A stretch of DNA of 47,785 nt, filler included, from Catajapyx aquilonaris (taxonomy: Eukaryota), in assembly GCA_000934665.2 (NCBI GenBank). It is 2 parts of 2 records of this genome, joined end to end, with 100 filler letters (N's around TTAATTAATTAA, not from the genome) between each part and the next. Parts side by side here need not be neighbours in the genome. Positions count along the whole stretch, not along the records: positions 22,431 to 47,785 come from JYFJ02005912.1; 1 more part is not named here. The stretch is one strand, 5' to 3'. Position numbers and translations under genes: made by a program. The notes under the pieces are model-generated. The model was not told the DNA's origin. It worked only from the letters and a program-made list of their open reading frames with translations, and searched no databases. Shown here piece by piece: positions 22,446 to 47,785 of this stretch. Every line of letters begins with the position of its first letter. Position 1 is the stretch's first letter.

Positions 22446-25272
22446 TGAATTAGCACTCCTGGTGCTGCATATTCCTGATATGATATGTCGTTTCTTCCAT
22501 ATATTGGCTCTCCAAATTTTACTGGTACAGAAATCAATGCGCTCAAATTCTTGCATGGTGATGGGATGCTCTTCACTGTCATATTCATTACCAGCAGGGA
22601 GATTGGTATATCTGTTGCGAGAGTAGGAGATACCGTTACAATACTTCACTTTTGCTTTTCTGATAATAAAGGATAATAGAGAGAGCATATAGCGAAGGTA
22701 AATTATGTTAAATATTCAGGCACACATTGTTATAATGTAATAGTGAGATAATGAATATTTCATAGTACCCGTATGAAATGTTGTCATACTTTGTACCATA
22801 CTTTCAAAATCATCGTAGGCAATTCGTAGGGCTACATTGTAAAGTGTGTTTCAGTGAATAATATACTGAACGGTACTCACTGGTCATATCCATATTTATT
22901 TTGATTATTGAGTTGACCAGAGATCCATTATCTGCATCTAATCCGAGGTGGAATCGGGACTGGACACTTGAAGAATAGTTGGCTGGAAATGAAAGGAGTC
23001 CCCAAGCATTCCCATTCCTGATTGCTTCGATGGCTTTTCCCTCATCATCATATGGGGCCTGCATCATGACAAGGAAATAATGCTACTGACATATCAAATA
23101 TGACCTTTGCAGATTGTGTAGTTATTAATATCAGACTGACCAGCCGAAGCATACTGTGATCCAGGTTATCTATGAAGATGCAGCTCAAATTCTGAAAGCT
23201 GCATCCTAGTTGAGGTTGGCATATTGGCTCAGTGGGCCACTCATGGTTGACCAATGCAAAAGGAAGCTCTCTCGGGTTACCCCCAAGGGATATGCAGAGC
23301 ATCAGCAGTACAATTGAAGGTTGTGCGCATATGACTAGAAAAGGCCTGCGGACGAAAAATTACAATGAAAACAGGACGACTGGAAATAGTAAAGTTTGAT
23401 ACAAGCTTGCCAGTGTATGTTGGAAGGAGAGATTGAGCTTACTGGATGTTTCTTCGCAGCCATTTCCTTTCCATGTACAGTGTAGCACGAAAACTGCTCA
23501 TTGGATGTTTGTTATCTTCATACTTCTTTGCGTTGGGTACTGGTGTTGTGCTTGTGCCTCCGTATAGAGACAACAGTTTTGTCTGGTCCCTACCAGATGC
23601 GATGGACATTTTGTCAACCCCACTCCTGTCATCCTCCAGACAGATGCTCAGAAACACCCCCTCCAGAGTCTGAGAATGGTACATCCTCATGAGGGACGTG
23701 GGTGAATCCTCAGCCAGGAGACGACCACTCCTCATCATGCCAACCACCTGGGCATGACGGGCCTCCTCCATGTAATGGGTGGTCAGGATTATCGTGGTCT
23801 TGCTCACAGAGGCCAGCTCACGCATGTAGAGCCAGAGCCTGAAAAGTATGTCCTCAAAAATTTTACCCCATTGAGAGATCAACGCTCTATTAGGGGGGTG
23901 GAACACCACCATACTTTCAATTTTATTGGTTTTTTTTCTTCATACTCTGGTGCAGGGAAATCATGGAAATATGGTAAGGATAGGATTTTTGGGGAGGGGA
24001 CACGGGTGCAAGTGCAATGTCTCAAACTGGGCCATGTGCCGTCCTGGACATGGGATTTACGCGAAGTGTAGCACCTATGTTGCTCAAGGCTTGCCTGGTC
24101 GGTGTTGGTCGCATTATCTCAAATAAAAATTTATGTAAAGAGTGAGCAACACTTACGCTTGTCTAAAAAGAGGATCCACGCCCACAGTTGGTTCGTCCAG
24201 AAGTAGTATTTCGGGTTGGTGTAGCAATGCCAAACACAAGGAGACACGCTTTTGTTGACCGCCACTTGATAGAGTTTTAAAAATATCCAATTAGTCAAGG
24301 GCAGCTTTTTAGAAGAAAAGAGTATGTCTTCATCAGCGAACATGCGTAATAAGCACGCAGTATTCTAGTGTAATTATACCACAATAATTGCTTCAGTGCT
24401 GTACTAACACGTGTTAACCTTGATAAAATAATTTCGTCACCTGAGGGTGTGAATGAGCCTGTCCTTGTGTGGCAATTGGAGGAATTTGATGAGAAAGGCC
24501 ATCCTGGAGTGGATGTGTTCCTGTGACATTCCATGGACCATCCCGAAGTAAGTGACCATCTCCCGAATGGAGCACTCCAGATAGAGCCCCTTGTCCTGGG
24601 GCATGTAGCCCAGCCTGGACCCGGGCACACCAGACTCCTTGCTCCCAGGAGGGTGGCCAAATATGCGGATTGTCCCGTGGTCCAACTCTTGCTGACCAAC
24701 AATGCAGGTCAGAAGGGTCGTCTTCCCGCATCCACTTGCTCCCAGCAAGGCGTATCTGAGACAATTGAGAAAGTAACAGAAATTCATGTCTATATTAATC
24801 TCACTGAGCAAAATAGGAAGATGTCTTGACTTACATAGTTCCCTCTTGAACAGTCATGTCTAGTTTCATGAGGACGGGATTTTTCTTAATTCCGCTTTCG
24901 TAAGTCTTCCAGGCATTTCTCACTCTCAGGGCTGGTGCATCAGGCACTGGTTTATTTTCATTCGCCTGTAAAACAGAACTGTGTTCACTGGACATTTGTT
25001 CACTATCTGCTGTGTCAAAAAGGAAGTTTTTCAGACAAACTTGTTCTGGTGCTATACAATAATCACAAGGAGGAAGGTTGGGTTAAAGTTGATAATGAGC
25101 TGACGGTTGTATACTGTATAGCTCAGCACCTGCTTTTAAAGCCAGTACTTGTGAAACTCAGCCGACGGAATATTGCATTCTAGTTATACCCACTACTGCA
25201 GAATGAAGCCTTTGATCAAAACCGATTTCTACTTCGTACTATTACAAATGGATCGCGTACTCTACTCACCAT
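22446..25272 (-). CDS. ABCH-family half transporter, copy A (3'-truncated by the contig end)
   Basis: Walker [11 protein letters not shown]-loop GYMPQ, signature LSGGQ, Walker [14 protein letters not shown]-loop TTHYMEEA, then ABC-2-type membrane exons; NBD-TMD order. Confidence 0.9.
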
Positions 25273-25789
25273 GATGTTTCGTCCACTTCTTTAAAAACAC
25301 AAGTGAATACTGCTGCTCCTTGATGCAAACGATCAGCCAATAATTTGCACCCATCATAAAAAGTAATAAGGTACAAATTGCTGCAATACATTTTTACATA
25401 CTGTACGTCAAGATTTTTATCTGCTGTAATGTGCAATAATATTTCCTCATGCTTACCTATTTGGGGTCTGTAGCAAAAATAATATAAAAAAATTGACAGA
25501 TGCTGACTTCCAAGCCATGGGAATCAAACTTGGGCACAAAAAAGCTATTGATGCGTTCTATCACTGAATCGGTAAGGCTTGAAAATAGGAGTCTCCATTA
25601 TTATGTTAATAACTGTACAAGAGTGTAGGCCTAAAAATATAGTGCCTCTATATAAATAGTGTCTTTATTTTCATTCATATTTCATACTAGAAACAGATTT
25701 GTGCCCTTAAGTACAGAGCATACTGGGGCCTTAGTGATTACCTATAACTGCAGAGAATAGCTTATTAAGATTTTTCTCTCAATTTTTAA

Positions 25790-26283
25790 AAGGCAATGAG
25801 CTTTGGCATCAATGGTACCAGGATTCAACAAAATCCCTCAGAAGCACAGGGGTCAGAAGGCTTTGAAGCAGGTACGTCACTCCAGGGCTCTATGAACTCT
25901 ACGTACTTAATCTCGGAGGTACTCTCCCAGACGATACATGCGCAATTTTCCTTGACTGCAAAATGTTGCGTGTCAACAACAGATTGAAAGCAACAGTGAT
26001 GGTCCTTACGTCAGTGAGTGCTCCAAAGCCACCTGGCCAATTAGAGGCATTCTCGTATGGATCAAGAGGTCCTAAATTTATACGAGGATTTCGGTCACCA
26101 TGCCGGAACATCTGAAAAGGAACGATTTCTATTAGTCATGCCATTACACACTAAAAGTAATACATAAGTATGCTTACTACGTGAAACAAGACTAATCGAT
26201 GTGTTTTGTGAAGATATGTCGCTTTTGGCATATTTGCAGCAAAGCAGCAAGCAAAATCCTACTAAGTTGGCTATATATAACGT
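25790..26283 (-). pseudogene. Histidine acid phosphatase (lysosomal/prostatic type) pseudogene fragment
   Basis: RHGDRNP catalytic motif, DPY...WPGGFGALT, then GKLRMYRLGEYLR. The signal-peptide-like exon starts with ACG and is out of frame; further frameshift/stop; most of the domain is missing. Confidence 0.8.
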
Positions 26284-26939: not shown

Positions 26940-28037
26940 ATGGCACCCCAGTCACCTGCGGTTGAAGTGACCCAAGACGACCTCTAGGATTGGGCGTTGG
27001 CAACAACGACCCCAGCTTTGGAAACCCCTTCCCTCGACGACCCTCCTCCAACATGGGTGGACAAGGAGAAGTTCAAAAGAGGGCAAGATTTTGCCATCAG
27101 ATACCTGGGAATCGTCACCATGACTTGGCTCTTTGGCTCGGCCGTTTCCTTCACCGTGGCCACCATCGAAAAAGTGCTCGGCTACAACGGATCTTTCAAG
27201 TCTGTTCCAAACTGCTATCGACGCATCCGAGTCACCAAAGACCACGTATGTGCCTGGTTGATGGGAGACCTGTGGGATCCATCTGACAAGTCCTACAAGA
27301 TGATGGCCAGTCTCCAGAAGCTGCACAAAAGAGTGGGCATTGTGGCCAACCAGAGGAAAGAGGAATTGGACAGATTCACTGTGGACACCACCACTGAACC
27401 CCAGGTCAGCAAACAATGCGTCGCATGGCCTCTTCTGCAGAAGGACTGGCAGTCACTCAAATCCAAGGGATGGAACCAGCCAGCCTTCCAGTATCCAGAT
27501 GCCACCATGTACATGACCCAGTTCGACTCTGCTGCTGTCATCTTTGGTTTGGCAGCACCGACCGTGGGATATCCGGAGAAGCTTGGTCTCCACAACGCCA
27601 CCAGAGAAGACCTGGAGGGTTACCTGCACTGGCTTCGAGTCGTAGCCTACTATCTAGGGGTGGAGGATCGGTTCAACCCGTGCTCCGGAACCATCGAGGA
27701 ATTCAGGGATTATGTGCGGAAGTATTTCAGCAGCATAGTTCTCCCCTCATTCCAAAGCATGTCCAAGGAGAACGAATTCTTCTTCAGAATCCACATGGAG
27801 GCCCTGGGGACGAGAAGCAGATTGATAAAACTATTGTCTCCGCCTCCAGAAACAATGTTTCTTCTGCTTGGCTGGCCTTTTGATGTGGAAATGCCTTTTT
27901 TATACAGCTCGGTCAGCTGGTATGCTAAATTTTACTATTGGATTTTCAAATTTCTTACCTCTGTGCTTATGCGAATCTCTTTTGTCCGGACGATTGTTAA
28001 CCACTTTGCGGAAGTAATGTTTGTGAAGAATTTCTGA
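26940..28037 (+). CDS. Intronless ER-bound oxygenase MpaB / rubber oxygenase (Lcp)-like protein, with an in-frame TAG at codon 16 (possible pseudogene)
   Basis: Family-like motifs PTWVDKEKFKRGQDF, YRRIRVTKDHV..W, LHKRV, TQFD, LGL..ATREDLEGYLHW.RVVAYYLGVEDRFNPC and a hydrophobic C-terminus. ATG 26940 is in frame, with TAG at 26985-26987. Confidence 0.7.
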
Positions 28038-28292
28038 TTATGAAATTTATGTTTCCATAAGCTAGCGTGACATTCAATGTAGTGTAACTTAATCTATTGT
28101 ATTATGGTGTGCTACTAATTTGGTAATAAAGGAATCACTACAATGTTATGAAGGGAAAGACTGAGTAAGCATTTAATTTCCACCCACTGTCATCTGCAAT
28201 TCTATGTAATATAACAATATTCCGTCAGTAATCGGAGTGAGTCAAAATGGTGCAGCAGAGAAAAGTCCTGAAGTGCGGAACGATCACTAATA

Positions 28293-28578: not shown

Positions 28579-31500
28579 TCATTTCAGTTTGGCCACAGAT
28601 GGCACGAGCCCTTTTGAAACTTGTGGGTATATGAAAATACCCAGTGTGAACACACCTGACCACACAGTGATTGCCACAAAACCAGGCCACACCCCTGAAT
28701 GCAGTATCCCCCACCCTCGACTGATTATGCTCCTGGATGCATCGTATGCCAAGGTGCTGACCATACCCTTGCACAACCATCTCAACCAGGGCCGACTGAT
28801 GCCTTCCAGGGGCCACAACAGACCGCTTAAGAACATGTTGGGCAAGGTGAGAGCAAAAAACACCACAACTAAAGCTCCGATATTCTGGGTCCTCTGCGCT
28901 GCCAAGCAACCCAGAATGAATCCACATAATCCTTGCAAGAACAATATACAAAACAACCACACCCAATTAGCCGTTACACTCACTCCAAGATACAACCACA
29001 TAACTCCCAGGGCACTTAGAGTATGGGCCATCATCATACTTGTGCCAAATGTTACAAATGCACAGAACTCCTGCTTGGTGCTGACTCCTGCAATGAGAAT
29101 GGAGATTACCAAAGAATTATCCAAAGTTTCCACAATTTTTGCGCATAGTGTCATACCTGATGTTCTAGCCCGTTGGGGAACACCAGACATTCGTGCCATT
29201 ATTAGCTTGCCAGCTGCAAACCCGAGTGATCCTGAAAATATCGTCCTGCAAACAAGTGACAAAAGTAAGGATCAAGTGCGTCATGAAGGATATGTCAGGG
29301 TGATTATCAGCCTGAAAGGAGAACGACTATTCAAAATAATGTAAGCACCCCAATATGATAAAACACGATTTTCCACTGGTGATGAAGGTGTTGATTTAGC
29401 ATTGGAAGAAAGTGATGAACTAAAACTTGAATCGCCAAATAGTGATGTCATGAAGTAATATTGTGTTATTATGGAGTGTTGACAGAGCAATATAAAAATT
29501 GCAGAGTACGTACAGTGTTGCAATTCCTGGTGCTACATACTCTTGAACCGATATGTCGTTGCTTCCGTAGATTGGCTGGCCAAAGTCGATTGGCGCAGAT
29601 GTCAGTGCTGTAAAGTCTTTGCAGGAAGATGCCACTTGATTCAAGGCTATCATGCGCATTACCACCAATGACATCTGCGCATCTGTCGAGAATAGGATAT
29701 TCTTTTTTTCTGTGAGGATGTGTAGGCCTACATCGTAATTTAGGCCTCTAAAGACAAAATTCTGCGCTTCATGAACAAAATAATATATGTTGTTGAAAAG
29801 CCACATAAAATTACACTGAATTATAAATTTTATGCATGCAACCGAGCATGCAACATGATAAATATGACGAAGTCATAAAGCGTAATGAAATCAAGTCACT
29901 CACTAGTCATGTCCATATTTATTTTGACTCTTGAATTGACTAGGGATCCATTATCTGCATCTAACCCGAGGGAGAATCGGGACTGAACACTTGAAGAATA
30001 GTTGGATGGAAATGAAATTAGTCCCCAAGCATTCCCTTTCCTGATTGATTCTATTGCTGTTACTTCGTCATCATAAGGGACCTGCGTTGTGACAAGAAAA
30101 TAATTGTACATGACATATCGATACTAACATTGGCAAATTCTTATGTTATTATGTTCACAAACTGACCAGTCGAAGCATGTTGTGATCCAAGTTCTTTATG
30201 AATGTGCAACTCAAATTCTGATAACTGCATCCACGTTGAGGTTGGCATATTGGCTCAGTGGGCCACTCATTGTTGACCACTGCGAAGGGCAGATCTTTCG
30301 GGTCGCCACCCACATACATGCAGTACATCAGCGTCAAAATTGGAGGCGTTAAGCATACGAGTAGAAAAACACTGAGGAAAAAATTACAACATTACTTGTT
30401 CAATGTAGCACTTGATGTAGCACGCAATTTAACCTACTAGATATTTCCTCGCACCCATTTCATGTCCATGTACAGCGTAGCACGATAACTGCTCAATGGA
30501 GATTTGTTATCTTCATATTTCCTTGCTTTGGGAACTGGAGCTGTGCTTGCATTGTCAAACAATGAGACCTGTTTATTCTGATCCCTACCAGCTGCGATGG
30601 ACATTTTGTTAGCCCCACTCCTGTCATCCTCCAGACAGAGGCTCAGAAACACCCCCTCCAGAGTCTGAGAGTGGTACATCCTCATGAGGGACGTGGGTGA
30701 ATCCTCTTCCAGGAGACGACCACTCCTCATCATGCCAACCACCTGGGCATGACGGGCCTCCTCCATGTAATGGGTGGTCAGGATTATTGTGGTCTTGCTC
30801 ACCGAGGCCAGCTCACGCAGGTGAGACCAAATGCTGAAAGTATTGTTCATATGAATGTATATCTACAAAAAGGAGGATAATTTATTATGATCGGATTATA
30901 CCAGTACATAGATTGTTGTATAGGGATGTTTATCAGTGAAAATAATACGAAATGTTACAGTACAGTACTGGTAAATCTCACGGGTTTGCTTTACATTTCA
31001 TGTCTTCTAGCCCTAGTGCTGGAAACCTGAGTTAAACATAATTTGAGAAGGGTTTAAACAACTCTAAATCATGCCATGATTTTAATGACGTCACTATTTC
31101 TTAGAAACTAATAACAATGAAATATATTTTGCACACTATCCGAATGCTTTCCTGCAATATTGCACAACCAGTAAAAATCGAAATATTGAACCGTAAAACA
31201 AAAACTGTTTACGAGTATGTCACCTAATGAGTTTTTGTGCCAATATCCACATGCTGGTGTGCATCGTTTGATGTCAAGATCATTGATGATAAGATTTATT
31301 ATTTTGCATACAAACTATGGTGATAATTGTATTCAGTGTAGACTGTAGAGATATTGACAATAATAATTCTGAAAAGAGTGAAATGGTATGGAATTCTGAC
31401 AGAAGGTGGTAAGTTTCATTTTTGAATGCAGTATGGTACATTGAAGCCAATAATCTGGATTAGAAAATTATTGCATAACTCTTAGATTTGAATCCCACAG

Positions 31501-32652
31501 TAGATTCATTATTACCCCCCTGAAGATGTACAGTACAACATAAGTGCAATAATTATACTCGTATGTTAGTTGTTTAAGAAGGAAATGTGAAACCCTTCTA
31601 AAATTGATTTCAGTTACCAAGATTTCACCCTTAAATTTCAGTTCTTTAGGTTAACAGTCCATGTGTATAAAGTAGGCAACTAGAAAATCATCGATGTCTT
31701 GCATGGTGCCGGCCCGAATGGGTCGGTGCCCCCCAGCCTCATTGTTGCAGTCCAATATCGCTCGCATATAATTCATGTTAACTGTAAAGAGCTCGTGGAA
31801 CTTACGCTTGTCTAACAAGAGGATCCACGCCCACAGTTGGTTCGTCCAGAATTAGTATTTCCGGCTCGTTTAACAATGCCAAACACAAGGAGACACGCTT
31901 TTGTTGTCCGCCACTGCATGGAGATTTAAAATATTTGAATAGTCTTACGATGTGTAAAAATAAAAGGGCCTATTTCCATCTTGAAACATAGATAATGACC
32001 ATGCAGTAGGCCTGATCTTGTGTAATGTTTTCACAATAATTCCTTCAGTACATCTTTACCTTGAGAGAATAATTTTGTCACCTGAGTGTGTGAATGAGCC
32101 TGTCCTTGTGCGGCAATTGGAGGAATTTGATGAGAAAGGCCATCCTGGAGTGGATGTCTTCCTGTGACATTCCGTGGACCATCCCGAAGTAAGTGACCAT
32201 CTCCCGAATGGAGCACTCCAGATAGAGCCCCTTGTCCTGGGGCATGTAGCCCAGCCTGGACCCGGGCACACCAGACTCCTTGCTCCCAGGAGGGTGGCCA
32301 AATATGCGGATTGTCCCGTGGTCCAACTCTTGCTGACCAACAATGCAGGTCAGAAGGGTCGTCTTCCCGCATCCACTGGCTCCAAGCAAGGCGTATCTGA
32401 GACCATTGAACATGTAGTTTAAAGTTATGCACAGAACTACACACTTTTGACGTTAAGGAGATATAGGGTGGCAATATTCATCTTATATTGAGCAAAATTA
32501 AAGAATGTCATGACTTACATGGTTCCCTCTTGAACAGTCATGTCTAGTTTCATGAGCACAGGACTTTTCTTATTTCCAATTTTGTAAGACTTCCAGGCAT
32601 TTTTCACTATCAGAGCTTCTGATACGTCCGCACTTTGTGAGCTGCCTTCCAT
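28579..32652 (-). CDS. ABCH-family half transporter, copy B (start codon tentative)
   Basis: Same exon structure with all NBD motifs; terminal exon with SGLLWPLEG...PWLR...[10 protein letters not shown]...VWPGF. Confidence 0.9.
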
Positions 32653-32880
32653 CGTCTGTAAAAAAATGTACCATCATAGTGTTCATACACTGCACACTGG
32701 GCATAGAGTGTACTGTATGTCATGTCTAAAAAGTTTCGGACTAATGTCCACCTTGACCGTGATGCTAGAATATTGACGGTTACTGTAAGGTGTAGGCTAC
32801 TGTATAGCACCATTCAACGTGTGCCCATAACTTTTACAGATACCCATGCAGAAAACCAGACTCATTGTAGGTTTTGTTCA

Positions 32881-34210: not shown

Positions 34211-36306
34211 TCATTTAAAAAAATTTCTCCTTCTCAGTAATCGCATTTTGGATACTTTGGGATACATGAAAATACCAAGTGTGAACACTCCCATCCACAC
34301 AATAGAGGCGACAAACCCAGGCCAGACTCCTGGATGCAATAACCCCCACCCTCGACTGATTATGCTTCTGGATGCATCATAAGCCAAGGTGCTAAACATA
34401 CACTTGCAGATCCATCTCAACCAGGGCTGACTGATGCCTTCCAGAGGCCACAACACACCGCTCATGTAAAAATTCAAAATTGCAAGGGTAAATACTAGCA
34501 AAATAAAAGACCCTATGCTGTGGATCATTAGAGATGTGCAATATCCCATGGTAAATCCAAGCAATCCTTGAAAAAGCAAAATGCAAAACATCAACACCCA
34601 ATTGTATGATATCTTCAGTCCCAGGTATAATCTGATAGTTTCCAGACCAATCACTAGCTGCATCAGCGTTAAAACCAAGCCGAAGGAAAAATATCCGAAG
34701 AAATCCTGCCGAGTATTCATTCCTGAAAGGAAGCAACGTAAATATGCGACTTCCAAGAACAAAAGGGAACAAATGTTCCGTATTAAGGGATGGTCGTGTG
34801 CTTTGACCATTGCAGTATATTTCATGGTATGGTGATAATGCTTCCACTATACCTGCTATTGCGGCACGTTTCGGCACACCCGACGAGTGTGTCAGTATTA
34901 ATTTTCCACCTGATCCCGCCATTGCTATTCCAATCACTATGCTGCAAGAGAAAGAAAATGCCTGACACAACCAGAATATCCTAATTTATGGGATTATTTT
35001 AAGCCAGAGAGAGAAACCGGTATACTGTAGGTCATTTCAGTCATTCACCGTGGGGAATGAACGGGATAATGTCTGGATGTACTTAATATTCTTACAGAAT
35101 TAGAATTCCTGGTGCTACATATTCCTGATATGATATATCATTGCTTCCATATATTGGCTTTCCAAAATTTACTGGCAATAAAGTCAATGCACTGACATTC
35201 TTGCATGATGTTGGCATTTGCTTCAATATTGTCATGCGCATTACTAGCAGGGAGATGGGTATATCTGTTGAGAAAAAAGGAGATGCATTTTACAATATTA
35301 ATTTTCACAAGGTTCTGCTTTTGCGAAAAAGAAAGTGTTTCTTGATTGAGTTGATCTCTGTCTGTTAAAAATTTCTCTTGAAATTACTAGTCGCAGCAAG
35401 AGCTAATAAGTTATTAGCTCTTGGTCGCAGTTATCGCTAATAAAATTATATTTGAAAGTCGCGTGTGACTAACTTATTCTTGGAGTTGCGAAAACCTGGG
35501 AATGAAGGTGGAAAATCTTCAATTTTCTGTTTCACAAAATGTTGGTATGGCAATGGAAACATTCCTGAATTGAAATTTTAATGTAAGAAACTAAGGAAGA
35601 TTATTATGCCTGATCTTCAAACAATCTAGCTAAAATGTGCGAATGAATTTTTCCCATGGAAATCCCCATTTGATATTTTGTCACAGGTGCAACTAAACAT
35701 TCAAAATAACTACATTTTGTGAAATCTCTCTTAGTGTACAAGTTACTGATCAGCACTCACTGGTCATGTCCATATTAATTTTGATTCTTGAGTTGACCAG
35801 AGATCCATTGTCTGCATCTGATCCAAGCAAGAATCGAGACTTAATACTTGAAGAGTAGTTGGCTGGAAATGAAATGAGTCCCCAAGCATCCCCTTTCCTG
35901 ATGGATTCAATTGCCTTTTCCTCATCATCATATGGGACCTGCATTGTGACATAAGGAAGAAAAAATAATGATGGAGGGCATATTGATAATAACATTGTCA
36001 AATTCAGACTGACCAGGCGAAGCATGTTGTGATCTAGGTTATCTATGTAGGTGCAACTCAAATTCTGGTAGCTGCATGTGAGTTGAGGTTGGCATATGGG
36101 TTCAGTGGGCCATTCATTGTTGACCACTGCGAAGGGCAGATCTTTTGGATCACCCCCAACAAACATGCAGAACATCAGCGTTATAATTGAAGGTTGTAAG
36201 CTAATGACTAGAAAAGAACTGAGGATGACATTAAAATTAAAACAGAAGGACCGGACGTATTGTTAGTTAGGTCTAATACGCTTAGCAGTACATTTCAGAG
36301 ATGAAA

Positions 36307-36386
<80 letters not shown>

Positions 36387-39300
36387 GCACACTTGCACGG
36401 ATATAAGAAGCACTGAAGGAAAGTCCTCCAGTCTTCTAAAACCAGAGTAGTGATCACTACAGTTAAATGTAGCAAGCAATCAATTTAACTTACAAGATGT
36501 TTCTTCTCAGCCATTTCCCTTCCATGTACAGTGAAGCAAGAAAACTGCTCAATGGAGGGATGTTGTCTTCATATTTCCTTGCTTTGGGAACTGGAGTCGT
36601 GCTTGTATTGCCATACAATGAGACCAGTTTATTCTGATCCCTACCAGTTGTGACATACATTTGGTGATTTTGGTCAACCCCACTCCTGTCATCCTCCAGG
36701 CAGAGGCTCAGAAACACCCCCTCCAGAGTCTGAGAGTGGTACATCCTCATGAGGGACGTGGGTGAATCCTCGGCCAGGAGACGACCACTCCTCATCATGC
36801 CAACCACCTGGGCATGACGGGCCTCCTCCATGTAATGGGTGGTCAGGATTATCGTGGTCTTGCTCACCGAGGCCAGTTCACGTAGGTGGAACCAGATACT
36901 GAAAAGTATGCCTTCAAAGGTACAGTAGGGTAAAGTAAGGTTGGATGGCAAATTTTCCAAGCAATTTTTTTACGAGGTTAGGTTCACCATTTTAACCAAA
37001 GTTTTGGGCCAATATCATTTTTCAAATATCCTTCACCATAAGTAAATAATTACAGAAAGCAAATAAGCAATACATTATATGTTAATTAACTTCTAAATTT
37101 CAGCTGCAAATAGTACGATTTTTCAAAACAGTAGGTTGAATGGCAAGCCCATCAGGTTGAATGGCAAAGTGTAAGGTTACATGTCAATTTATTAGGTCTA
37201 TCAGAAATAATAATCACTATTAATTATTAATTTCTTCGTTTTATTTATTGTCACATATGCACATAGCACATAATCCTACCTATGGACTTGTTTCTTACCT
37301 TTAATCTCACCCAGAGGAAGAATAGTTTTCTGCAGTTTTACTGCCTATTTTTATTTAATTCTTTTCATCATCAGAATAAAGTGAAAACCTGCTGATGCCC
37401 CCCCTTTCGTCCCAAAATGTTTCCCCCCTTCAACCTCCTGTGGGGGAAGTGGGCTCCAGACTGGGACCCCCCCTCCCAAGTATATCCGGTCTCGGTACAG
37501 AAAGGGAGCGAGAGCCACAAAACTGACACTTTCGAAATCGCCTTGTAGCTCAAAAAGTAAAGGTTTTTCTCAAAAAAGGTAGGCAGGAGGGCACCCCTTG
37601 GGAACATTGCGGTTCGAATAACACATTGGATGACCCTCTACGACGCACCGTTTAGGCTGTACCCTGGTGCGACTAGCGACACTTTTTTGAACTTTGACCC
37701 CGGCTAATGACCCCGGTAATGGCCCTAGTTGTTGTTTATCTATCTAAAGTTTGAAACAGTAGTGAGCGGAGTGTAAATCTTGTTTCAGATTTGAAATCGA
37801 TTAACCCGATCACGAGTTATGAAGTCGGGAAAATAGCATTGGGATCGTAGCGATTCCATACTATTCGTTTTTGGCGGGCGCCGCTTCGCGGCGCAACCGG
37901 CAGGTGCAGTTGCCGGGCCCGGGAATAGAAAAATGAGTGCCTCCATGACAGGTGCAACCTTAAAAATTTGCCAACTTTGTTAAGGCCTGTACGAGCGCTA
38001 TTGTGAATTTTTCAAAACTATGTTTAGTCACAATTGTTCTTTAAGCTTTCTAAATTGGATTCATATGCATTAAATGATGAAATACTGACTTTGTAACTCA
38101 TTATTAATCTGTTTTTGACAGTGAGGTCCGGCCGCTCTCCAGCAGACGCCAACCAATTTCCAATATGGCTTCTTCTTCGGATAATTAGGTTGTCACACAA
38201 TATATGGCAGTGAAGTATTTTTTGTAACACAGCTGGAAGGTGGCTCCACAGTATGAATAAACGGCAACTTTAGAAAGGCGCGATTTCCTAACTATTTTAA
38301 TTTAACAAAAATCTTTGCCATACAACCTGACTTGCCATCCAACATAATTTTACCCTACATGCTGAACAGTATATAATTATATAAGTCAATATTAAATAAG
38401 ATTTTTTTTCCTGTACCCCGTTATCTGGCCGATAGGCCATTTCTAGGGGGGTGGGTTACCACCATTTGTGGTTTGGAGCGATACATATACGTATTTCTAA
38501 TTGCTCCAAGGGTAATTAGGAGGGGATGTGCGAAGTGAAAGTGCAATGTCGTTATATGGTCATTTTGTGAACTCCCCCGGGTGGGTTAGTCTAGCGGATA
38601 TTCCCACCCGAAACGAAGCCAAAGATGGCCCAACTCTGCACGAAAGAAGGTGGGAATCCCGGGTGGGGATTGAACCCGGGACCTTAAATAAGAATATTTT
38701 CAAACTCTGAATTGCAAAAAAACTATTGTGAATTGCTTATTGAAAAGTCTTATTGAAGTCTCATTGCTTATTTCAAGCCATCCAAAGTCAAAGCAAAATT
38801 GATTTGTTGGAGGCTAATTGCCTTGATGTGTTAATTCCTGCTCAAATACTTGGGATTACTCCGCTGTACATTTTTTAAAGAAATTGTTTGCTGGTTAGAT
38901 TCGTGAAATTATAATAATAATCGGTGCTGGTGGCATATTTATTATTTCTCAAATAATAATACGGGTACTTTATGTAAAGCATCCAGAGCACTTACGCTTG
39001 TCTAAAAAGAGGATCCACTCCCACAGTTGGTTCGTCCAGAATCAGTATTTCTGGTTGGTGCAACAATGCCAGACACAAAGAGACACGCTTTTGTTGACCG
39101 CCGCTGTTTGGACAGATAAAATGTTATTTAATAGTCTTGCCAATTTTAGACAATAAAATGGCTTGTTACCATCATCTTGCCATCATTCAAACATACGTAA
39201 GAGCATGTGGTATATTCGTGTTCAAGGTTGTAAAGTAATTTGCCCATGGTTTCTTCAGACCTGTACACATCTTAACCTTGAGTAAATAATTTCGTCACCT

Positions 39301-40242
39301 GAGCGTGTGGATGAGCCTGTCCTTGTGCGGCAATTGGAGGAATTTGATGAGAAAGGCCATCCTGGAGTGGATGTGTTCCTGTGACATTCCGTGGACCATC
39401 CCGAAGTAAGTGACCATCTCCCGAATGGAGCACTCCAGATAGAGCCCCTTGTCCTGGGGCATGTAGCCCAGCCTGGACCCGGGCACACCAGACTCCTTGC
39501 TCCCAGGAGGGTGGCCAAATATGCGGATTGTCCCGTGGTCCAACTCTTGCTGACCAACAATGCAGGTCAGAAGGGTCGTCTTCCCGCATCCACTGGCTCC
39601 AAGCAAGGCGTATCTGAAACAATTGAGAAAGTGACAGAAATTTATGTCTATATTTATCTCACTGAGCAACCTAGGAAGATGTTTTGACTTACATGGTTCC
39701 CTCTTGAACAGTCATGTCTAGTTTCATGAGGACGGGATTTTTCTTAATTCCGCTTTCGTAAGACTTCCATGCATTTTTCACTCTCAGGGCTTCTGGCACC
39801 TCAGAAACGGCTGGTCTTGTATCAGTCCCCTATAAAAGATGACCGTTCACCGGACATTATTGTTCAATATCCTCTGCGACAAAAGGGAAGATTAGGATAG
39901 ACTTCCGGATCTGCCTACATAAGGTCTTTATATTGTAAAGTCGTCAAGAGGAAGGTACGGTTCAAGTTGATAGTGAGATGACTGTCAACCATACTACTGC
40001 AGTGTTTAAAAATCAATTTTTGGTATTTATTCAGATTGCATTGCTACTTAACGACTTGTGTAACTTTCTTTGTCCATGCCATATTAATGATGAGGTGACA
40101 AGAATGGAAATGAGCAACCGAGCCACTACAGTATTTTACAGGTAGAAAATAATTACAGCTCAATATTATGAAATACGTGGTCAAACCCGATTTCTATAAT
40201 AATTTGTAATATTACGAAGCAATGGCTTACTATACTCACCAT
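34211..40242 (-). CDS. ABCH-family half transporter, copy C
   Basis: Full exon set from an ATG-only first coding exon (40240-40242) through the NBD motifs to the terminal membrane exon ending RRRNFFK*. Confidence 0.92.
36308..36382. repeat. (AT)n microsatellite in an ABCH copy C intron
   Basis: Uninterrupted atatat tract of about 75 bp. Confidence 0.99.
36923..38358. mobile_element. Non-autonomous TIR DNA transposon remnant (pogo/Tc1-mariner-like left end TA|CAGTAGGG) in an ABCH copy C intron
   Basis: Left gtagggtaaagtaaggttggatggcaa versus reverse complement of right end gtagggtaaaattatgttggatggcaa; internal aggttgaatggcaa repeats at about 37133 and 37154, inverted at about 38314. Confidence 0.7.
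37390..37930. mobile_element. GC-richer insert nested in the above element, ending in GC hairpins (Helitron/Helentron-derivative-like)
   Basis: Abrupt GC rise; terminal palindromes gcgccgcttcgcggcgc and ccggca...tgccgg at about 37878-37915. Confidence 0.45.
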
Positions 40243-40488: not shown

Positions 40489-43400
40489 TCAATCAGCTTT
40501 TCTCTTCGGAAAATGCATCTTGGAAATTTTAGGATAAACAAAAACACCCAGTGCGAGCACTCCTACCCATGCAATGGAGGAAACAAAACCAGGCCAGACC
40601 CCAGGATGCAGTAACCCCCACCCACGACTGATTATTCCTCTGGATGACCTATAGGGCAAGGTGGTGATCATACCATCGCACAACCATCGTAACTGGGCCC
40701 AGCTAACCCCTTCCAAAGGCCATATCATACCGCACATAAAAATATTGGGATTGGTAATGGCATACATTGCCATCACTACAACCACCAAACTGTTGGTCGT
40801 TAGAGAGGTTAAATATCCCATGACCAATCCGATGCACCCTTGAAGATACAATATGCAGACCACCCACATCCAGCTGTAAGATATCTTCAGGCCCACGTAC
40901 AACCAGATAACTGCCAGGCTACTCACTATCTGAGTGAACAATAAAATCGCAAACATGGCAACGAGTCCCAAGAATTCCTGTTCACCATTTGTTCCTGCAA
41001 TGAGACAAAGAAAATAGAGTACAGTACTTTAGTTTACGGTATGCTTTTTTTCACTGTTAATTATTATGTTCCTAGTTGGATACGGGAATTCGTAACCATT
41101 TCTAAACGTTGGGGACGTTATTTAATAATTATCGATATATTTACTCCTACTAGGCTACTACTACTATAAAATATTAAAATCGTAGTGGTTACCTGATATT
41201 AAAGCACGTTGTGGAACACCGGACGCACGTGCAATTATTAATTTTGCAGACGATGCTGCCAATGATGCACCAAATATCGTGCTGCAATGAAAAAATAATT
41301 GGGTGTGACACTCACTAAATTAAGTAACGCATAATAACATTTTCACTTACATTGCTACTATTCCTGGAGCTATGTATTCGTGTACTGATATATCATTGCT
41401 TCCGTATATTGGGGTGCCAAATTTGATTGGTGAATAATTAAAAGCACTCGAGTTTCTACATGAAGATGACATTTGGTTCAATGCTACCATGCGCATTACT
41501 ATCACGGAGATTTGCACATCTGTTGAGACAAAAGGGATACACTTCAAGTGGTATCTTGCAATCCCATTCGTGGCTAGAAATGTACCGTGGAAAGTTACAG
41601 CATTTAAATATCACGTGTATTTGTTTAATTGAATGTTAATAGTGCATTTTTTCAATACTTCCATCCATCCATCCATTTTACTGCATTAATTCCATGCAAT
41701 ACAATTTTGCCATAGTTGTATTAAAAAGTCGTCATCATTTATAGTTTCTGTCAAAAATTGCTAATCATTAAAGACATAACAATATGAACATCCTGCACAC
41801 TCACTAGTCATGTCCATGTTTACTTTGACAATGGAATTGACGAGGGATCCATTGTCTGCATCTGATCCTAGCAGTAATCGTGACTGGACACTTGAAGAAT
41901 AGTTGGCTGGAAATGAAATTAGGCCCCAAGCTTCTCCTCTCCTAATTGCTTCAACTGCCTTTGCCTCATCATCATATGGGACCTGCATTGTTACAAGAAC
42001 AACAATAATGTCGAATGGTTCCTATGATATCAGTGTTCATATTGAATACAAACCAGTCGAAGCATGTGGTGATCCAGGTTGTCCATAAACTTGCAGCTTA
42101 AATTCTGATAGTTGCATCCGAGGTCAGGTTGGCATATGGGTTCAGTGGGCCACTCATGGTTGACCACTGCGAAGTTCAAATCTCTAGGGTCAGCCCCAAC
42201 ATACATGCAATACATCAGCGTTATCATCGCAGGGTGTAAGATAATGACTAGAAGGGAACTGAGGAAGACATATTACAATACCAACAGTAGGAATATCCAC
42301 CGACAATCTTATTTACTCATGAAAGCAGCATGAAAGCGTACTTGGTATGACAGAGGAACATCTGTTGGAAAAACAGCATTGCTTAACTTACGGGATATTT
42401 CTTCTCAGCCATTTCCTTTCCATGAACATCGAAGCACGAAAGCTGCTCCCTGGAGGTTTTCGATCTTCATACTTCCTTGCTTTGGGCACTGGTGTTGTGC
42501 TGGTGCCTCCGTATAACGACAACAGTTTTGTCTGGTCCCTACCAGGTGCGATGGACATTTTGTCAACCCCACTCCTGTCATCCTCCAGACATAGGCCCAG
42601 AAACACCCCCTCCAGAGTCTGAGAATGGTACATCCTCATCAGGGACGTGGGTGAATCCTCTTCCAGAAGACGACCACTCCTCATCATGCCAACCACCTGG
42701 GCATGACGGGCCTCCTCCATGTAATGGGTGGTCAGGATTATCGTGGTCTTGCTCACAGAGGCCAGCTCACGCAGGTGGAACCAGATACTGTTGAATATAA
42801 TGTTGAAAAGGACATTCTACAAAGCATAGATAGTCCATTGCATCTAATGGAGATGGGAATTTCAATTAGAAAATAATACAGTGATAATATTTTCAGTATA
42901 AAAAGTGGTAAAGAACCAGAAAATTAATATTCCAATTTTCATTGTCTCAAGGACTAATTTGTCGATGATCTGCATCATTTTTATTGGAAATGGTTGCTTA
43001 TGGTGTATTTAACAAGCGACTCTATTGGTATTGTACTTTATTTAAAATGTTAAGAGATCTAAGTACTTACGCTTGTCTAAAAATAGGATCTACGCCCACT
43101 GTTGGTTCGTCCAGAATTAGTATTTCTGGTTGGTGCAACAATGCCACACACAGAGACACACGCTTTTGTTGACCGCCACTGCATCAGGTTATGAATAGAT
43201 CAAATAAGTCTGAGACAACATATTAGAAGAAAATATTTTTTAAGAATCATTGATGGGGTAATGTCGATATAATGCTATACAGTAGGCTACTTGCAGTCTA
43301 TTTCCATCTTGAAACACATACGTAATGAACATGCAATAGGCATGTGTAATTTTCCCACGATAATTGCTTCAGTAAAGCCCCTACTATACATCTTTACCTT

Positions 43401-44302
43401 GAGTAAATAATTTCGTCACCTGAGCGTGTGGATGAGCCTGTCCTTGTGTGGCAATTGGAGGAATTTGATGAGAAGGGCCATCCTGGAGTGGATGTCTTCC
43501 TGTGACATTCCGTGGACCATCCCGAAGTAAGTGACCATCTCCCGAATGGAGCACTCCAGATAAAGCCCCTTGTCCTGGGGCATGTAGCCCAGCCTGGACC
43601 CGGGCACACCAGACTCCTTGCTCCCAGGAGGGTGGCCAAATATGCGGATTGTCCCGTGGTCCAACTCTTGCTGACCAACAATGCAGGTCAGAAGGGTCGT
43701 CTTCCCGCATCCACTGGCTCCCAGCAAGGCGTATCTGTAACAATGGAGAAAGTAACAGAAATTCATGTCTATATTAATCTCACTGAGCAAAATAGGAAGA
43801 TGTCTTGACTTACATAGTTCCCTCTTGAACAGTCATGTCTAGTTTCATTAGGACGTGATTTTTCTTACTTCCACTTTCGTAGGTCTTCCAGGCATTTCTC
43901 ACTCTCAGGGCTTCTGGGTCCTCAGAGCCTTTTGGACCTTTTTCAATCGACTGTAAAAGAAGACCATTTGCATTGGACATCGAAATCTCATTTGATGAAT
44001 AGTAGCCTATCTGCGAAACGACTCATTGTAAGTTTCGCTTACATCTTGCAAGCTGCTGCATGGACTTACTTTTGCTATTTATTATATTTCATAACTTTCT
44101 AAAGATGTGTGAAAACTTTAATTTTCAATGCCATAGATACATTTATCAAGATAATTATTAGAAGGTTAAGGAATGAGCTTCCGAGAGCTCTGTATGAATA
44201 AAACAGAGCAACAGACTAATCTTGTTATTTACTTGCAGCAGGTGGCAATTTTGTTATTGGCAAATGTATTGTTATATACAAATTGTGTGGTCTACTCACC
44301 AT
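40489..44302 (-). CDS. ABCH-family half transporter, copy D
   Basis: Full exon set; ATG-only first coding exon at 44300-44302; intact Walker A, LSGGQ, Walker B and H-loop; ends FPKRKAD*. Confidence 0.92.
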
Positions 44303-44473
44303 GGTGATGTTTCTTCCACTTGCTTCAAGGTACAAGTGTAAATTACTCGACGATTGATATTCAGAACCATTTCTTTTAGACCATATTAAGAAAGCGATGG
44401 ATTGCTGCAATTTATTTAATGTCTTTTTCAATACCATCATTATGATGAAACAGCATTATTTCCCCGCACATTA

Positions 44474-44640
44474 CCGTAGAAGAACCTGAGCTCAAAAAAA
44501 TGAGAACCAGTTCGATTACATAAAACAGTTTATTTGCAAAGCTGTGATGAGTAAAAAAAATTGGAAGCTCAACTGCAAGGAGTGCATTTGCCACTTTTTC
44601 AGGACAACAGAATGATCCTCAAAATAATAATTTAAAATGG
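44474..44640. repeat. Dispersed non-coding duplicate, copy 2
   Basis: Matches 28293-28450. Confidence 0.9.
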
Positions 44641-45036
44641 CATTTTACAAGGCGAACAAGGCATTACCACCAATGATATCTGCTTTTCAAAGTTATACCA
44701 GTCAAAGTCTGTCAGTGAGCACTTTGGGTTGTGGAAAATTGTTAATGACAGCAACTAAAGTTCCAAGGTCATTATTTATGGCTACCTGCTATTCAAGACT
44801 ATAATCCGTGAAAGAAAAACCGCCTATTGCATGCGCACAAGGTCAAATCAGTACGAATCACACACTTGTATTTTTATAGCAATTAATATGTTCGAGGGGA
44901 TAGAGTCTCCCTGCTGATAATTTGCCTCGCCACGTATATATGGTATAGACTTAGTGAGTAATACGAGTATGTTGTATGTTATACAGCTTAATATTTTCTT
45001 TCAAAATTATGCCTCTCTCCCAGTTTAAGACTATCT

Positions 45037-47785
45037 TCAATCAGCTTTTCTCTTCGGAAATTGCATCTTGGAAATTTTAGGATACACAAAAACACCCAGT
45101 GCGAACACTCCTACCCACGCAATGGCGGAAACAAAACCAGGCCAGACCCCAGGATGCAGTAACCCCCACCCACGACTGATTATTCCTCTGGATGACTTGT
45201 AGGGCAATGTGGCGATCATACCCTGGCACAACCATCGCAATTGGACCGAATTAATGCCTTCCAAAGGCCATATCATACCGCACATAAAAATGTTGGGATT
45301 GGTAACGGCGAATATTGACATCACTACAATCACCAAACTGTCTGTCATTAGGGAGGTTAAATATCCTGCGACAAATCCAGCGCACCCTTGAAGATACAAT
45401 ATGCAGACCACCCACATCCAGCTGTAAGATATCTTCAGGCCCACGTACAACCAGATAACTGCCAGGCTACTCACTATCTGAGTGAACAATGAAATCGCAG
45501 AGATGGCAACAAGTCCATAGAATTCCTGATGAGGATTTGTTCCTGCAATGAGACATGTCCAAAACAGATCATGAAACATTGCATCCTTCAATCATAAGAT
45601 TACCTGATATTAATGCACGTTGTGGAACACCGGAGGCATGTGAGATTATTAATTTTGCAGACGATGCTGCCAATGCTGCACCAAACATAGTGCTGCAAGG
45701 GAAAATGCAGTAATTGGGTATGGTAGTCAGTAAGGAAAATTATATGAATATGATAATAATATAAGGATAAAATAACAATCATTGTACTTACAGTGTTACG
45801 ATTCCTGGAGCTATATATTCCTGTACTGATACATCGTTGCTTCCGTATATTGGCGTGCCAAATTTGATTGGCGAATAATTAAAAGCACTCGAGTTTCCAC
45901 ATGAAGATGACATTTGGTTCAATGCTACCATGCGCATTACCATCAGGGAGATTTGCAGATCTGTTGATAAAAAAGGGACATACTTCAAGTGGTATCTTGC
46001 AATCGCATTCGTGGCTAGATTTGTACCATGGAAAATTACAGCATTTAAATATCACGTGTATTTGTTTAATGTACGAGCAGCAGTATACACTTTTTCAATT
46101 CATCCATCTATTTTTCCGGCAATAATCCCATGCAATAGTTTCTGCCAAAAATATGTTTCTAATCATTAAAGACATGAACATCCTGCAGACTCACTAGTCA
46201 TGTCCATGTTTACTTTGACAATGGAATTGACGAGGGATCCATTGTCTGCATCTGGTCCTAGCAGTAATCGTGACTGGACACTTGAAGAATAGTTGGCTGG
46301 AAATGAAATTAGTCCCCATGCATCTCCTCTCCTGATTGCTTCAACTGCCTTTGCCTCATCATCATATGGGACCTGCATTGTTACAAGAACGACAATAATG
46401 TCGAATGGTTCATATGATATCAGTGGTCATATTGTATACAAACCAGTCGAAGCATGTGGTGATCCAGGTTGTCCATAAACTTGCAGCTTAAATTCTGATA
46501 GTTGCATCCGAGGTCAGGTTGGCATATGGGTTGCGAGGGCCACTCATGGTTGACCACTGCGAAGTTCAAATCTCTAGGGTCAGCCCCAACATACATGCAA
46601 TACATCAGCGTTATCATTGCAGGATGTAAGATTATGACGAAAACAGAACTGAGGAAGAAATATTACAATATCAACGGGAGGAATATCCACCGACAACTTT
46701 TTCATTCTAATCTTATGACAAAGAGACACTTGCTGGAAAAACAGCAGTGCTTAACTTACGGGATATTTCTTCTCAGCCATTTCTTTTCCATGTATAGCGA
46801 AGCACGAAAACTGCTCAATGGAGGTTTGTTATCTTCATACTTCCTTGCTTTGGGCACTGGTGTTGTGCTGGTGCCTCCGTATAACGACAACAGTTTTGTC
46901 TGGTCCCTACCAGGTGCGATGGACATTTTGTCAACCCCACTCCTGTCATCCTCCAGACAGAGGCTCAGAAACACCCCCTCCAGAGTCTGAGAGTGGTACA
47001 TCCTCATGAGGGACGTGGGTGAATCCTCTTCCAGGAGACGACCACTCCTCATCATGCCAACCACCTGGGCATGACGGGCCTCCTCCATGTAATGGGTGGT
47101 CAGGATTATCGTGGTCTTGCTCACCGAAGCCAGTTCACGTAAGTGGAGCCAGATACTGAAAAATGTTGAAAAGTGCATGCTACCTAACATTGATAATAAT
47201 TAATCCTTAGTATCTATGTACACTGTACAGTAATCAAGGTGGGGCAATCAAAGAGAAGTGAAATGTCATTAGAGGAAGTTGTAAGGGAACCATAATGAGT
47301 TCAAGCACTATTTATCAATAAGGATCTGCGTTCATTTTTGATTACAATACCGTATCTACTATTGGTATGGTATTTAAATGGTAAAACATGTAGAGAAATC
47401 TAAGTACTCAGTGTACTCACGCTTGTCTGAAAATTGGATCCACGCCCACAGTTGGTTCGTCCAGAATTAGTATTTCTGGCTTGTGTAACAATGCCAGGCA
47501 CAGAGACACGCGCTTTTGTTGACCGCCACTGCATCAATAGATATGAAAAAATAAATAAGACAGGGACAACTTATTGTGAGAAAATATTGTGTTGGAGTCG
47601 TTGATTGCTTATGTCGACATAACGCTCTGCTTTTATCCCTTCAGCGCTACAAATTTTATAATGAAAGATACTGCACCTGAGCGTGTGGATGAGCCTGTCC
47701 TTGTGCGGCAATTGGAGGAATTTGATGAGAAAGGCCATCCTGGAGTGGATGTCTTCCTGTGACATTCCGTGGACCATCCCGAAGT
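45037..47785 (-). CDS. ABCH-family half transporter, copy E (5'-partial, runs off the window)
   Basis: NBD exon cut by the window end; signature/Walker B, H-loop and all membrane exons present; closest to copy D, including introns. Confidence 0.92.

What the first reader, a model, noticed from the sequence alone, without database searches (positions are those of the whole stretch)
23439..47785. Constant ATPase exons with variable membrane exons: mosaic gene conversion across the ABCH array
Seen: the ~315-bp Walker A/Q-loop exon (about 24441-24755, 32082-32396, 39299-39613, 43420-43734, and partly from 47677) differs at only about 6 sites between copies A and C by eye, silent sites included. 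The TTHYMEEA...QTLEGVFL stretch is similarly near-identical. The intervening signature exon is more diverged (about 9 differences in 108 bp), and the membrane exons of B, C and D/E differ heavily even at protein level. Relationships switch along the gene: the intron before the Walker A exon groups A, C and D; the tail of the H-loop exon groups A, D and E against B and C; the membrane exons group D with E. The homogenised exons look GC-richer. Inference: ongoing, possibly GC-biased, interlocus conversion keeps the ATPase/dimer interface compatible while substrate domains diversify.
Basis: partly seen in the sequence, partly recalled or inferred. Interest (0 to 1): 0.72.

Follow-up and report, generated by a model that had tools for sequence, protein, structure and literature searches.

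The report
Gene-conversion islands in ABCH transporter array
Neighbouring copies of an arthropod lipid-exporter gene keep two stretches of their ATP-binding part almost letter-for-letter alike, most likely by copying them from one another, while the rest has drifted apart; this is a clean example of a known process, repeated in several branches of the same gene family.

Summary
Five intact-looking ABCH half-transporter genes (A-E, minus strand) plus neighbours G and F on other contigs share the same exon layout. The 315-bp Walker A exon differs at 1-7 of 312 sites between paralogues (silent divergence 0.054), and a ~150-bp H-loop stretch is nearly as alike. Other exons are 0.22-0.46 apart at silent sites (p 7e-21). 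GC3 is 0.70-0.73 in these stretches against 0.23-0.52 elsewhere. Read contigs hold the exon at 4.3-4.6 times flank depth, so the identity is not an assembly artefact. The same exon is homogenised and GC3-rich in three further ABCH clades of this genome. Best reading: interlocus gene conversion persists where purifying selection keeps a long unbroken stretch alike. The 'dimer-interface' and 'substrate diversification' parts are not supported: the signature/D-loop exon escapes homogenisation, and site tests found no positive selection in membrane exons. GC-biased conversion is possible, but the co-homogenised intron 2 is not GC-rich. The scan noted similar islands in other families of this genome (unchecked). 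Known process, new example.

The parts
22446..25272 (-). ABCH gene A, exon 1 (ATG) to exon 8; runs off the contig at 22431. Its last exons probably lie at the end of contig C3659 (inferred from similarity, not joined).
24441..24755 (-). A, Walker A/Q-loop exon (E3), homogenised tract 1; in A, C, D, G, E' the tract extends through intron 2 to about 24910 (A coordinates)
24157..24264 (-). A, signature/Walker B/D-loop exon (E4), not homogenised
23643..23792 (-). A, H-loop core of exon 5, homogenised tract 2
28579..32655 (-). ABCH gene B, 9 coding exons, open 700-aa frame
32082..32396 (-). B, Walker A exon (tract 1); intron 2 of B is 122 bp and has escaped the tract
30638..30787 (-). B, H-loop core (tract 2)
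34211..40242 (-). ABCH gene C, open frame over exons 3-10
39299..39613 (-). C, Walker A exon (tract 1)
36703..36852 (-). C, H-loop core (tract 2); differs from the distant paralogue F at only 4 of 150 sites
40489..44302 (-). ABCH gene D, open frame over exons 3-10; five predicted introns (exons 5-10) appear as spliced joints in run X5
43420..43734 (-). D, Walker A exon (tract 1); a single high-depth read contig in each of 3 DNA runs
42592..42741 (-). D, H-loop core (tract 2)
45037..47785 (-). ABCH gene E, cut by the contig end inside the Walker A exon; the 5' part continues, as a probable other allele, on contig C7920
47677..47785 (-). E, last 109 nt of the Walker A exon (tract 1)
46960..47109 (-). 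E, H-loop core (tract 2)
28579..29087 (-). B, last membrane exon (PF01061); diverged between paralogues, groups B with G
34211..34722 (-). C, last membrane exon (PF01061); groups C with A
40489..40994 (-). D, last membrane exon (PF01061); groups D with E

Best explanation
A tandem array of ABCH half-transporter genes (order probably G, A, B, C, D, E, F) undergoes recurrent non-allelic gene conversion. SHOWN: two tracts in the ATPase domain (the Walker A exon with part of its upstream flank, and the H-loop core) are about as alike between paralogues as probable alleles are, while the rest is 5-8 times further apart at silent sites; the tracts are GC3-rich; the same exon behaves so in three other ABCH clades. 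INFERRED: strong purifying selection on the ATPase keeps these long, indel-free stretches similar enough to pair and convert, and conversion then erases silent differences, a self-sustaining loop. Short conserved exons between diverged introns (the 108-bp signature exon), and membrane exons under weaker constraint, fell below the similarity needed and escaped. Occasional longer tracts or crossovers starting at these islands explain the switching relationships of the exon-5 tail. The GC3 rise comes either from GC-biased repair or from codon selection made more effective by conversion. No selection for heterodimer compatibility is needed.
For: Silent variation 15/153 in tracts vs 110/195 elsewhere, chi2 across exons p 1e-16; the longest silent-identity run falls in the Walker A exon for 14 of 15 core pairs (permutation p 0.0005-0.013, uncorrected; D-E, recent duplicates, not significant). 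Paralogues differ at 1-7 of 312, probable alleles B/B' at 2 of 312; allelic non-coding divergence about 3%. F is saturated with the core everywhere (143/291 silent codons differ from C) except the H-loop core (1/42; p 4e-10). Segment trees differ: the exon 9-10 data reject all 7 other segment trees (AU p <= 0.031); the exon-5 tail rejects the exon 4, 8 and 9-10 trees (p 0.009-0.034). 4 of 5 allele differences in the exon (B/B' 1 of 2, E/E' 3 of 3) have both states in other paralogues. Recurrence: clade C6082/C9031/C1157/C13562 has 1-5 of ~99 silent differences in this exon vs 6-7 of ~29 in exon 6; clade C1618a/b/C2276 4-7 of ~95; pair C3865/C3497 4/94 vs 4/18-7/33 downstream. Where intron 3 is absent (C1618a/b/C2276) the signature region joins the tract (0-1 of 35 silent differences, GC3 0.71-0.74), while the unconverted copy C1618c has 10/29 and GC3 0.47. 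Simulations and data for Arabidopsis halleri HMA4 describe this same loop (10.1101/2025.10.29.685298).
Against: No sister species was available, so the classic test (paralogues closer than orthologues) was not run. The Walker A exon has too few sites to reject the membrane tree (AU p 0.11); its evidence is shrunken branch length, not topology. The intron-loss contrast is mixed: C3865/C3497 also lack intron 3 yet show 4/33 silent differences in the signature region. Shared-state counts rest on B' and E' being alleles and on correct phasing by a short-read assembly, and E ends at a contig break inside the repeat. C2185a/b are partly homogenised in this exon with low GC3 (0.42). Why this exon rather than another of similar constraint is inferred, not tested.
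Confidence: 0.82

Rival explanations
1. Conversion is real, but selection favours it because the paralogues heterodimerise and need identical ATPase surfaces while membrane domains diversify adaptively.
For: The ATPase is almost invariant in protein (pN 0.005 in exon 3, 0.04 in exon 4) while membrane exons are at pN 0.09-0.27. ABCH are half transporters that must dimerise; TcABCH-9C homodimerises (PMC12578276).
Against: The signature/Walker B/D-loop exon is not homogenised. Compatibility needs amino-acid, not silent, identity. No positive selection in exons 6-7 or 8-10: M1a/M2a p 1.0, M7/M8 p 1.0 and 0.75, M8a/M8 p 0.5 and 0.28 (own implementation, 7 sequences, low power). Heterodimers and co-expression were not tested.
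Confidence: 0.08
2. The islands are mainly exchange points for repeated unequal crossing-over that builds chimeric genes, with conversion as a by-product.
For: Trees change across the islands: exon 4, the exon-5 tail and exons 8-10 give different groupings. The membrane tree ((G,B),(A,C),(D,E)) fits a two-gene block duplication.
Against: Both flanks of each island stay diverged in all six core genes, and F shares only a 150-bp patch with both flanks saturated, which needs double exchanges, i.e. conversion. The two processes are not exclusive.
Confidence: 0.05
3. Silent sites are held by selection (codon usage, splicing signals, RNA structure or an overlapping element), not copied.
For: GC3 is high in the tracts, and two other genes in the window are also GC3-rich (0.62-0.90).
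Against: Constraint would conserve silent sites across clades; instead F is saturated in the Walker A exon (dS about 2), and the four homogenised clades are each uniform within; three of them differ from one another at 94-120 of 312 sites. Intron 2 is co-homogenised (3-10% divergence).
Confidence: 0.03
4. Assembly or polishing collapse made the exons look identical.
For: The assembly is fragmented (20,583 contigs) and contig C3561 breaks inside the exon. Variants may be scrambled between copies.
Against: Independent contigs of three DNA runs each merge the exon into one 219-295 bp piece at 4.3-4.6 times flank depth, close to the 4.8-5.6 expected for six genes. That needs real shared 31-mers; no diverged version joined to D's flanks was listed. 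The three runs are one sample and may be the source of the assembly.
Confidence: 0.02

Closest known systems
Regional gene conversion in fugu clustered protocadherins (PMC1852091; passages read)
   Same: Tandem paralogues with one region over 99% identical, the rest diverged, and GC3 raised in the converted region (e.g. 41% to 61%); different subclusters homogenised to different sequences.
   Different: There the tract is the 3' half of one large variable exon spliced to truly shared constant exons. Here each gene is complete, the tracts are two short islands in the ATPase domain, and introns bound them.
Tandem HMA4 metal transporters of Arabidopsis halleri (bioRxiv 10.1101/2025.10.29.685298; abstract, one results section and first part of discussion read)
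   Same: A transporter array with mosaic divergence; purifying selection prolongs conversion in conserved parts while unconstrained parts escape; shared polymorphisms.
   Different: HMA4 copies are young and converted over nearly all exons and short introns. Here the copies are old (membrane dS 0.14-1.3) and only small islands remain.
Insect ABCH transporters: Drosophila Snu and Osy, Tribolium TcABCH-9C (PMC12578276, whole text read); lineage expansions in Tetranychus urticae (22) and Daphnia pulex (15) (PMC3724490, passages read)
   Same: Half transporter with the ATPase before the membrane domain; the best solved relative of the Walker A exon is 8z01/8yzp/9ju6 (E 2.8e-33, next family 1e-11), which I take from recall to be TcABCH-9C; lineage-specific expansion.
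   Different: About 40 ABCH-type Walker A exons in this genome (42 matches at E <= 1e-15, alleles and fragments included). The Tetranychus paper has 0 occurrences of 'gene conversion'. Substrates here are unknown.
Primate red/green opsin conversion as reviewed in PMC3924837 (passages read)
   Same: Interlocus conversion acting unevenly along a gene; it needs pairing over a few hundred similar bases and is broken by indels.
   Different: Opsins are converted by default, with a selected peak of divergence. Here divergence is the default, with valleys of identity.

Membership tests
ABCH half transporters | One ATPase domain N-terminal to one ABC-2-type membrane domain | tested here: met
   PF00005 in exons 3 and 4 and PF01061 in exon 10; open 700-aa frame in B
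ABCH half transporters | Intact Walker A, signature, Walker B and H-loop motifs | tested here: met
   Present in the translations of G, A, B, C, D, F; E lacks Walker A only because of the contig end, and E' has it; motif names are recalled
ABCH half transporters | ATPase closer to ABCH than to ABCA/ABCG | tested here: inconclusive
   Best PDB hit 117.6 bits vs 48 for ABCA3; the entry is named 'ABC transporter G family member 23-like' and its identity with TcABCH-9C is recalled; no tree with reference ABCH proteins was built
ABCH half transporters | Dimerisation and lipid or xenobiotic export | not testable with these tools
   No assay; no structure job was run
Interlocus gene conversion (regional concerted evolution) | Local collapse of silent divergence between paralogues | tested here: met
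Interlocus gene conversion (regional concerted evolution) | Incongruent relationships along the gene | tested here: met
   AU tests (uncorrected, short segments); F patch
Interlocus gene conversion (regional concerted evolution) | Polymorphisms shared between paralogues | tested here: inconclusive
   4 of 5 allele differences in the exon have both states in other copies, but only two probable allele pairs, unphased short-read assembly
Interlocus gene conversion (regional concerted evolution) | Paralogues closer than orthologues of a sister species in the tract | not testable with these tools
   The genome has no relatives here; the protein search gave one hit at 42% identity
GC-biased gene conversion | Raised GC at silent sites in converted tracts | tested here: met
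   GC3s 0.70-0.73 vs 0.23-0.52; 4 homogenised clades 0.67-0.74 vs 17 exons without a close partner, mean 0.52, one-sided p 0.004 (0.025 with C2185 and C859 added)
GC-biased gene conversion | Raised GC also in converted non-coding DNA | tested here: not met
   Intron 2 GC 0.32-0.33 vs 0.28-0.40 in other introns; only 66-79 bp, splice-constrained and perhaps recently homogenised, so a weak test
Constant/variable exon cluster (protocadherin or UGT1 type) | Variable exons spliced to one shared set of constant exons | tested here: not met
   Each copy has its own ATPase and membrane exons; D exons 5-10 are spliced to each other in run X5

The most novel reading that the evidence does not exclude
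The same Walker A exon has become a GC3-rich conversion island independently in at least four ABCH clades of one genome, with intron presence setting the tract edge. The GC rise is confined to synonymous sites and spares the co-homogenised intron, so it may reflect codon selection amplified by conversion rather than biased repair. If so, and if the islands also serve as exchange points that reshuffle linker and membrane modules between transporters, this family is a replicated natural experiment on what sustains conversion islands and drives their GC.
Probability: 0.15. Interest if true: 0.62.

Novelty: new member of a known kind. Interest (0 to 1): 0.36.

Why it matters
Practically, ABC families are classified by their ATPase domain, so trees, duplication dates, qPCR primers, RNAi triggers and read mapping based on this exon would merge or mis-relate these genes; membrane exons must be used. 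Conceptually, it offers four independent replicates of the same island, plus an intron-loss contrast, for testing how purifying selection, tract length and GC bias sustain conversion. The process itself is established, and no new transporter mechanism follows.

Tried and rejected
Shared constant exons with alternative variable exons: rejected, each copy is complete. Assembly collapse: rejected by read-contig depth. Ancient silent-site constraint: rejected, F and other clades are saturated. Positive selection on membrane exons: not detected. The homologue search with the last exon of B found 1 protein among 854 candidates, at 42% identity, useless for an orthologue test. The run search said 'no RNA holder listed'; X5 is of unknown kind but shows spliced joints. 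X5 has no cover over D's exons 1-2 and part of exon 3, which shows nothing. One search's first query was out of frame (no hit); it was repeated in frame. One search stopped with an error before the C859 clade, and its H-loop comparisons involving C1618c or C2276 against C1618a/b are shifted by an indel and not used. In one search the signature-exon pattern missed the window and C859 clades, so the 'E4' and 'delta' columns are not used; only Walker A GC3 and the listed silent counts are. Of 40 rows there, 16 fell in homogenised clades, 17 had no close partner, and 7 (C2185a/b, C859a,b,c,e,f) were left out of the first test and partly added in a second. C859a-c are 90-100% alike throughout (recent whole-gene copies) and are not counted as islands. 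The simple run test missed the F patch; the targeted test found it (region chosen after seeing the data). Two other tandem pairs on C3659 gave no clear island. Literature: 'ABCH' + 'gene conversion' gave 3 unrelated papers; two ABC-transporter conversion searches gave 2 and 4 unrelated papers; a GC-biased/ectopic/arthropod search gave 3. All four were seen as listings only; subscription journals are not covered. No earlier scan note on ABCH conversion.
Full report
Setting. The window joins two contigs at an N-and-linker gap (22331-22430); positions 22431-47785 are contig C3561 of a 286-Mb, 20,583-contig genome. That contig holds five minus-strand genes, A to E, of one exon layout. Exon models with AG/GT ends and open frames were built for them and for neighbours G (contig C3659) and F (contig C7920). 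Exons 3-4 match PF00005 and exon 10 matches PF01061. The best solved relative of exon 3 is 8z01/8yzp/9ju6 at E 2.8e-33, which I take from recall to be the beetle ABCH-9C. Contig C9842 matches the B-C region at 93-96% including intergenic DNA, and the start of C7920 matches the end of E. I treat these as alleles B', C', E' (non-coding divergence 29/1048 and 14/460); very recent duplicates cannot be excluded. Run X5, of unknown kind, shows joints at five predicted introns of D, so D appears to be transcribed and spliced.

The observation. The Walker A exon differs at 1-7 of 312 in-frame sites among G, A, B, C, D and E', and A vs C at exactly 6. Mean silent difference is 0.054 there and 0.115 in the first 70 codons of exon 5, against 0.22-0.46 in every other segment. 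Counting only codons with the same amino acid in all core copies, 8 of 97 vary silently in exon 3 and 7 of 56 in the exon-5 head, against 16 of 28 in the signature exon between them and 110 of 195 outside the tracts overall (p 7e-21; exon 3 vs 4, p 1.5e-7). Paralogue differences in exon 3 are of the size of allele differences (B/B' 2 of 312). GC3s is 0.73 and 0.70 in the tracts and 0.23-0.52 elsewhere. One refinement: in A, C, D, G and E' tract 1 also spans the end of exon 2 and intron 2 (3-10% divergence), while B has escaped there through a longer intron; downstream the tract fades within about 30 nt of intron 3.

Artefact check. Contigs built separately from three DNA runs of one sample each merge exon 3 into a single 219-295 bp piece at 4.3-4.6 times flank depth. 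Six genes with the assembled variants predict 4.8-5.6. The near-identity is therefore in the reads, and there is no sign of further hidden copies. Which variant sits in which copy is not verified, and these runs may be the assembly's own source.

Evidence for conversion. F is saturated with the core genes (143 of 291 silent codons differ from C) yet shares a 150-bp H-loop patch with 1 of 42 silent differences (p 4e-10; region picked after inspection). Segment trees disagree: exons 9-10 give ((G,B),(A,C),(D,E)) with support 98-100 and reject all seven other segment trees, while the exon-5 tail groups A, D, E and B, C and rejects the membrane trees (AU p 0.009-0.034, uncorrected). Exon 3 itself is too uniform to reject the membrane tree (p 0.11). 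Four of five allele differences in exon 3 have both states in other paralogues, a hallmark of ongoing conversion according to PMC3924837 (passages), but this depends on phasing.

Recurrence. A protein search found 42 matches to exon 3 in the genome among 61 candidates. Of 40 exon-3 rows examined, 16 fall in four clades whose exon 3 is near-identical while downstream exons are diverged: the window clade, C6082/C9031/C1157/C13562, C1618a/b/c with C2276, and C3865/C3497. Three of these clades, compared directly, differ from one another at 94-120 of 312 sites, and all four sit on separate branches of the exon-3 tree, so each was homogenised separately. Their GC3s is 0.67-0.74 against a mean of 0.52 (range 0.33-0.81) for 17 exons without a close partner (clade-level one-sided p 0.004; 0.025 when C2185 and C859 are added). 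C2185a/b are a counter-example, partly homogenised at GC3 0.42. In C1618a/b/C2276, intron 3 is absent and the signature region joins the tract (0-1 of 35 silent differences, GC3 0.71-0.74); the unconverted copy C1618c has 10 of 29 and GC3 0.47. With intron 3 present, the region is less homogenised (3-7 of 33 in the C6082 clade). C3865/C3497 lack the intron but show 4 of 33, so the contrast is suggestive only.

Mechanism. The simplest account is a loop: purifying selection on the ATPase keeps long, indel-free stretches similar enough to pair, conversion erases their silent differences, and short exons between diverged introns and less constrained membrane exons escape. The HMA4 preprint reports this loop from simulation and data (10.1101/2025.10.29.685298; sections read). 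Fugu protocadherins show the same regional identity with raised GC3 (PMC1852091, passages). The cause of the GC3 rise is open: exon 3 has 23 silent sites with GC in B and AT in F against 6 the other way (p 0.002), but the co-homogenised intron 2 has GC 0.33, within the range of the other introns (0.28-0.40).

By established ABC structure (my knowledge), the ATPase dimer pairs Walker A, Q-loop and H-loop of one subunit with the signature motif and D-loop of the other. The exon carrying the latter is the one not homogenised, and compatibility needs no silent identity. The known ABCH structure is a homodimer (PMC12578276, whole text); heterodimers were not tested. Membrane exons have omega 0.34 (exons 6-7) and 0.51 (exons 8-10) with no support for a class above 1 in M1a/M2a, M7/M8 or M8a/M8 (own code, seven sequences, low power). 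Functional divergence of substrates is possible but not shown.

Novelty. Four literature searches found no report of conversion in ABCH genes (listings only, open-access library). The process is well known. Of 8 earlier scan notes listed for this genome, 5 describe comparable islands in receptor and ABCC genes (not checked by me), which suggests a genome-wide habit rather than something special to ABCH. Verdict: real, well-supported regional gene conversion; a new member of a known kind; interest 0.36.

Noticed in passing
window 26988-28037 (+): Intronless 349-aa frame between ABCH A and B on the opposite strand; weak match to PF09995 (mpaB/rubber-oxygenase-like, E 0.0064, below the cut-off).
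   Followed up: partly
window 26010-26117 (-): Lone exon-like piece with AG/GT ends and an RHGDR motif that recalls histidine acid phosphatases (recalled); no Pfam hit. Possibly a stray gene fragment.
   Followed up: partly
window 28291-28452, 44472-44643; L002 1115-1191: Shared non-coding element (about 88% alike). It lies shortly upstream of exon 1 in D and upstream of E', but 3 kb upstream in A, with the two items above in between, as if they were inserted into A's upstream region.
   Followed up: no
L004 7804-7835 and 7980-8011 (gene G, contig C3659): A 32-nt inverted copy (94%) of the start of intron 2 lies just upstream of exon 2, so the arms flank that exon; matching loose ends occur in read contigs. 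It could loop out exon 2 in the pre-mRNA.
   Followed up: partly
window 30834-31805 vs L001 362-536: Intron 4 of B is 972 bp but 175 bp in the probable allele B', a possible polymorphic insertion; non-coding divergence of about 3% points to a highly heterozygous animal.
   Followed up: no
G/A (C3659, window 22446-25272) vs B/C (window 28579-40242): Membrane exons pair G with B and A with C at similar silent distance (exon 10 dS 0.27 and 0.34), suggesting a two-gene block duplication.
   Followed up: partly
L020 (C463b) and L021 (C980): Two distant ABCH genes share 88% identity in the H-loop stretch but about 62% in the Walker A exon, possibly another old H-loop conversion patch.
   Followed up: no
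genome G000: About 40 ABCH-type Walker A exons (42 matches), more than the 22 reported for Tetranychus and 15 for Daphnia; alleles and fragments are included in the count.
   Followed up: partly
window 22331-22430: N runs around a ttaattaattaa linker join two contigs; the left part holds ordinary genes judged by eye to be TAO-kinase-, NIPSNAP-, merlin- and ubiquitin-conjugating-enzyme-like (names recalled).
   Followed up: no
window 21625-22239: Degenerate short-period tandem repeat near the end of the left contig (self-matches at 65-87%).
   Followed up: no
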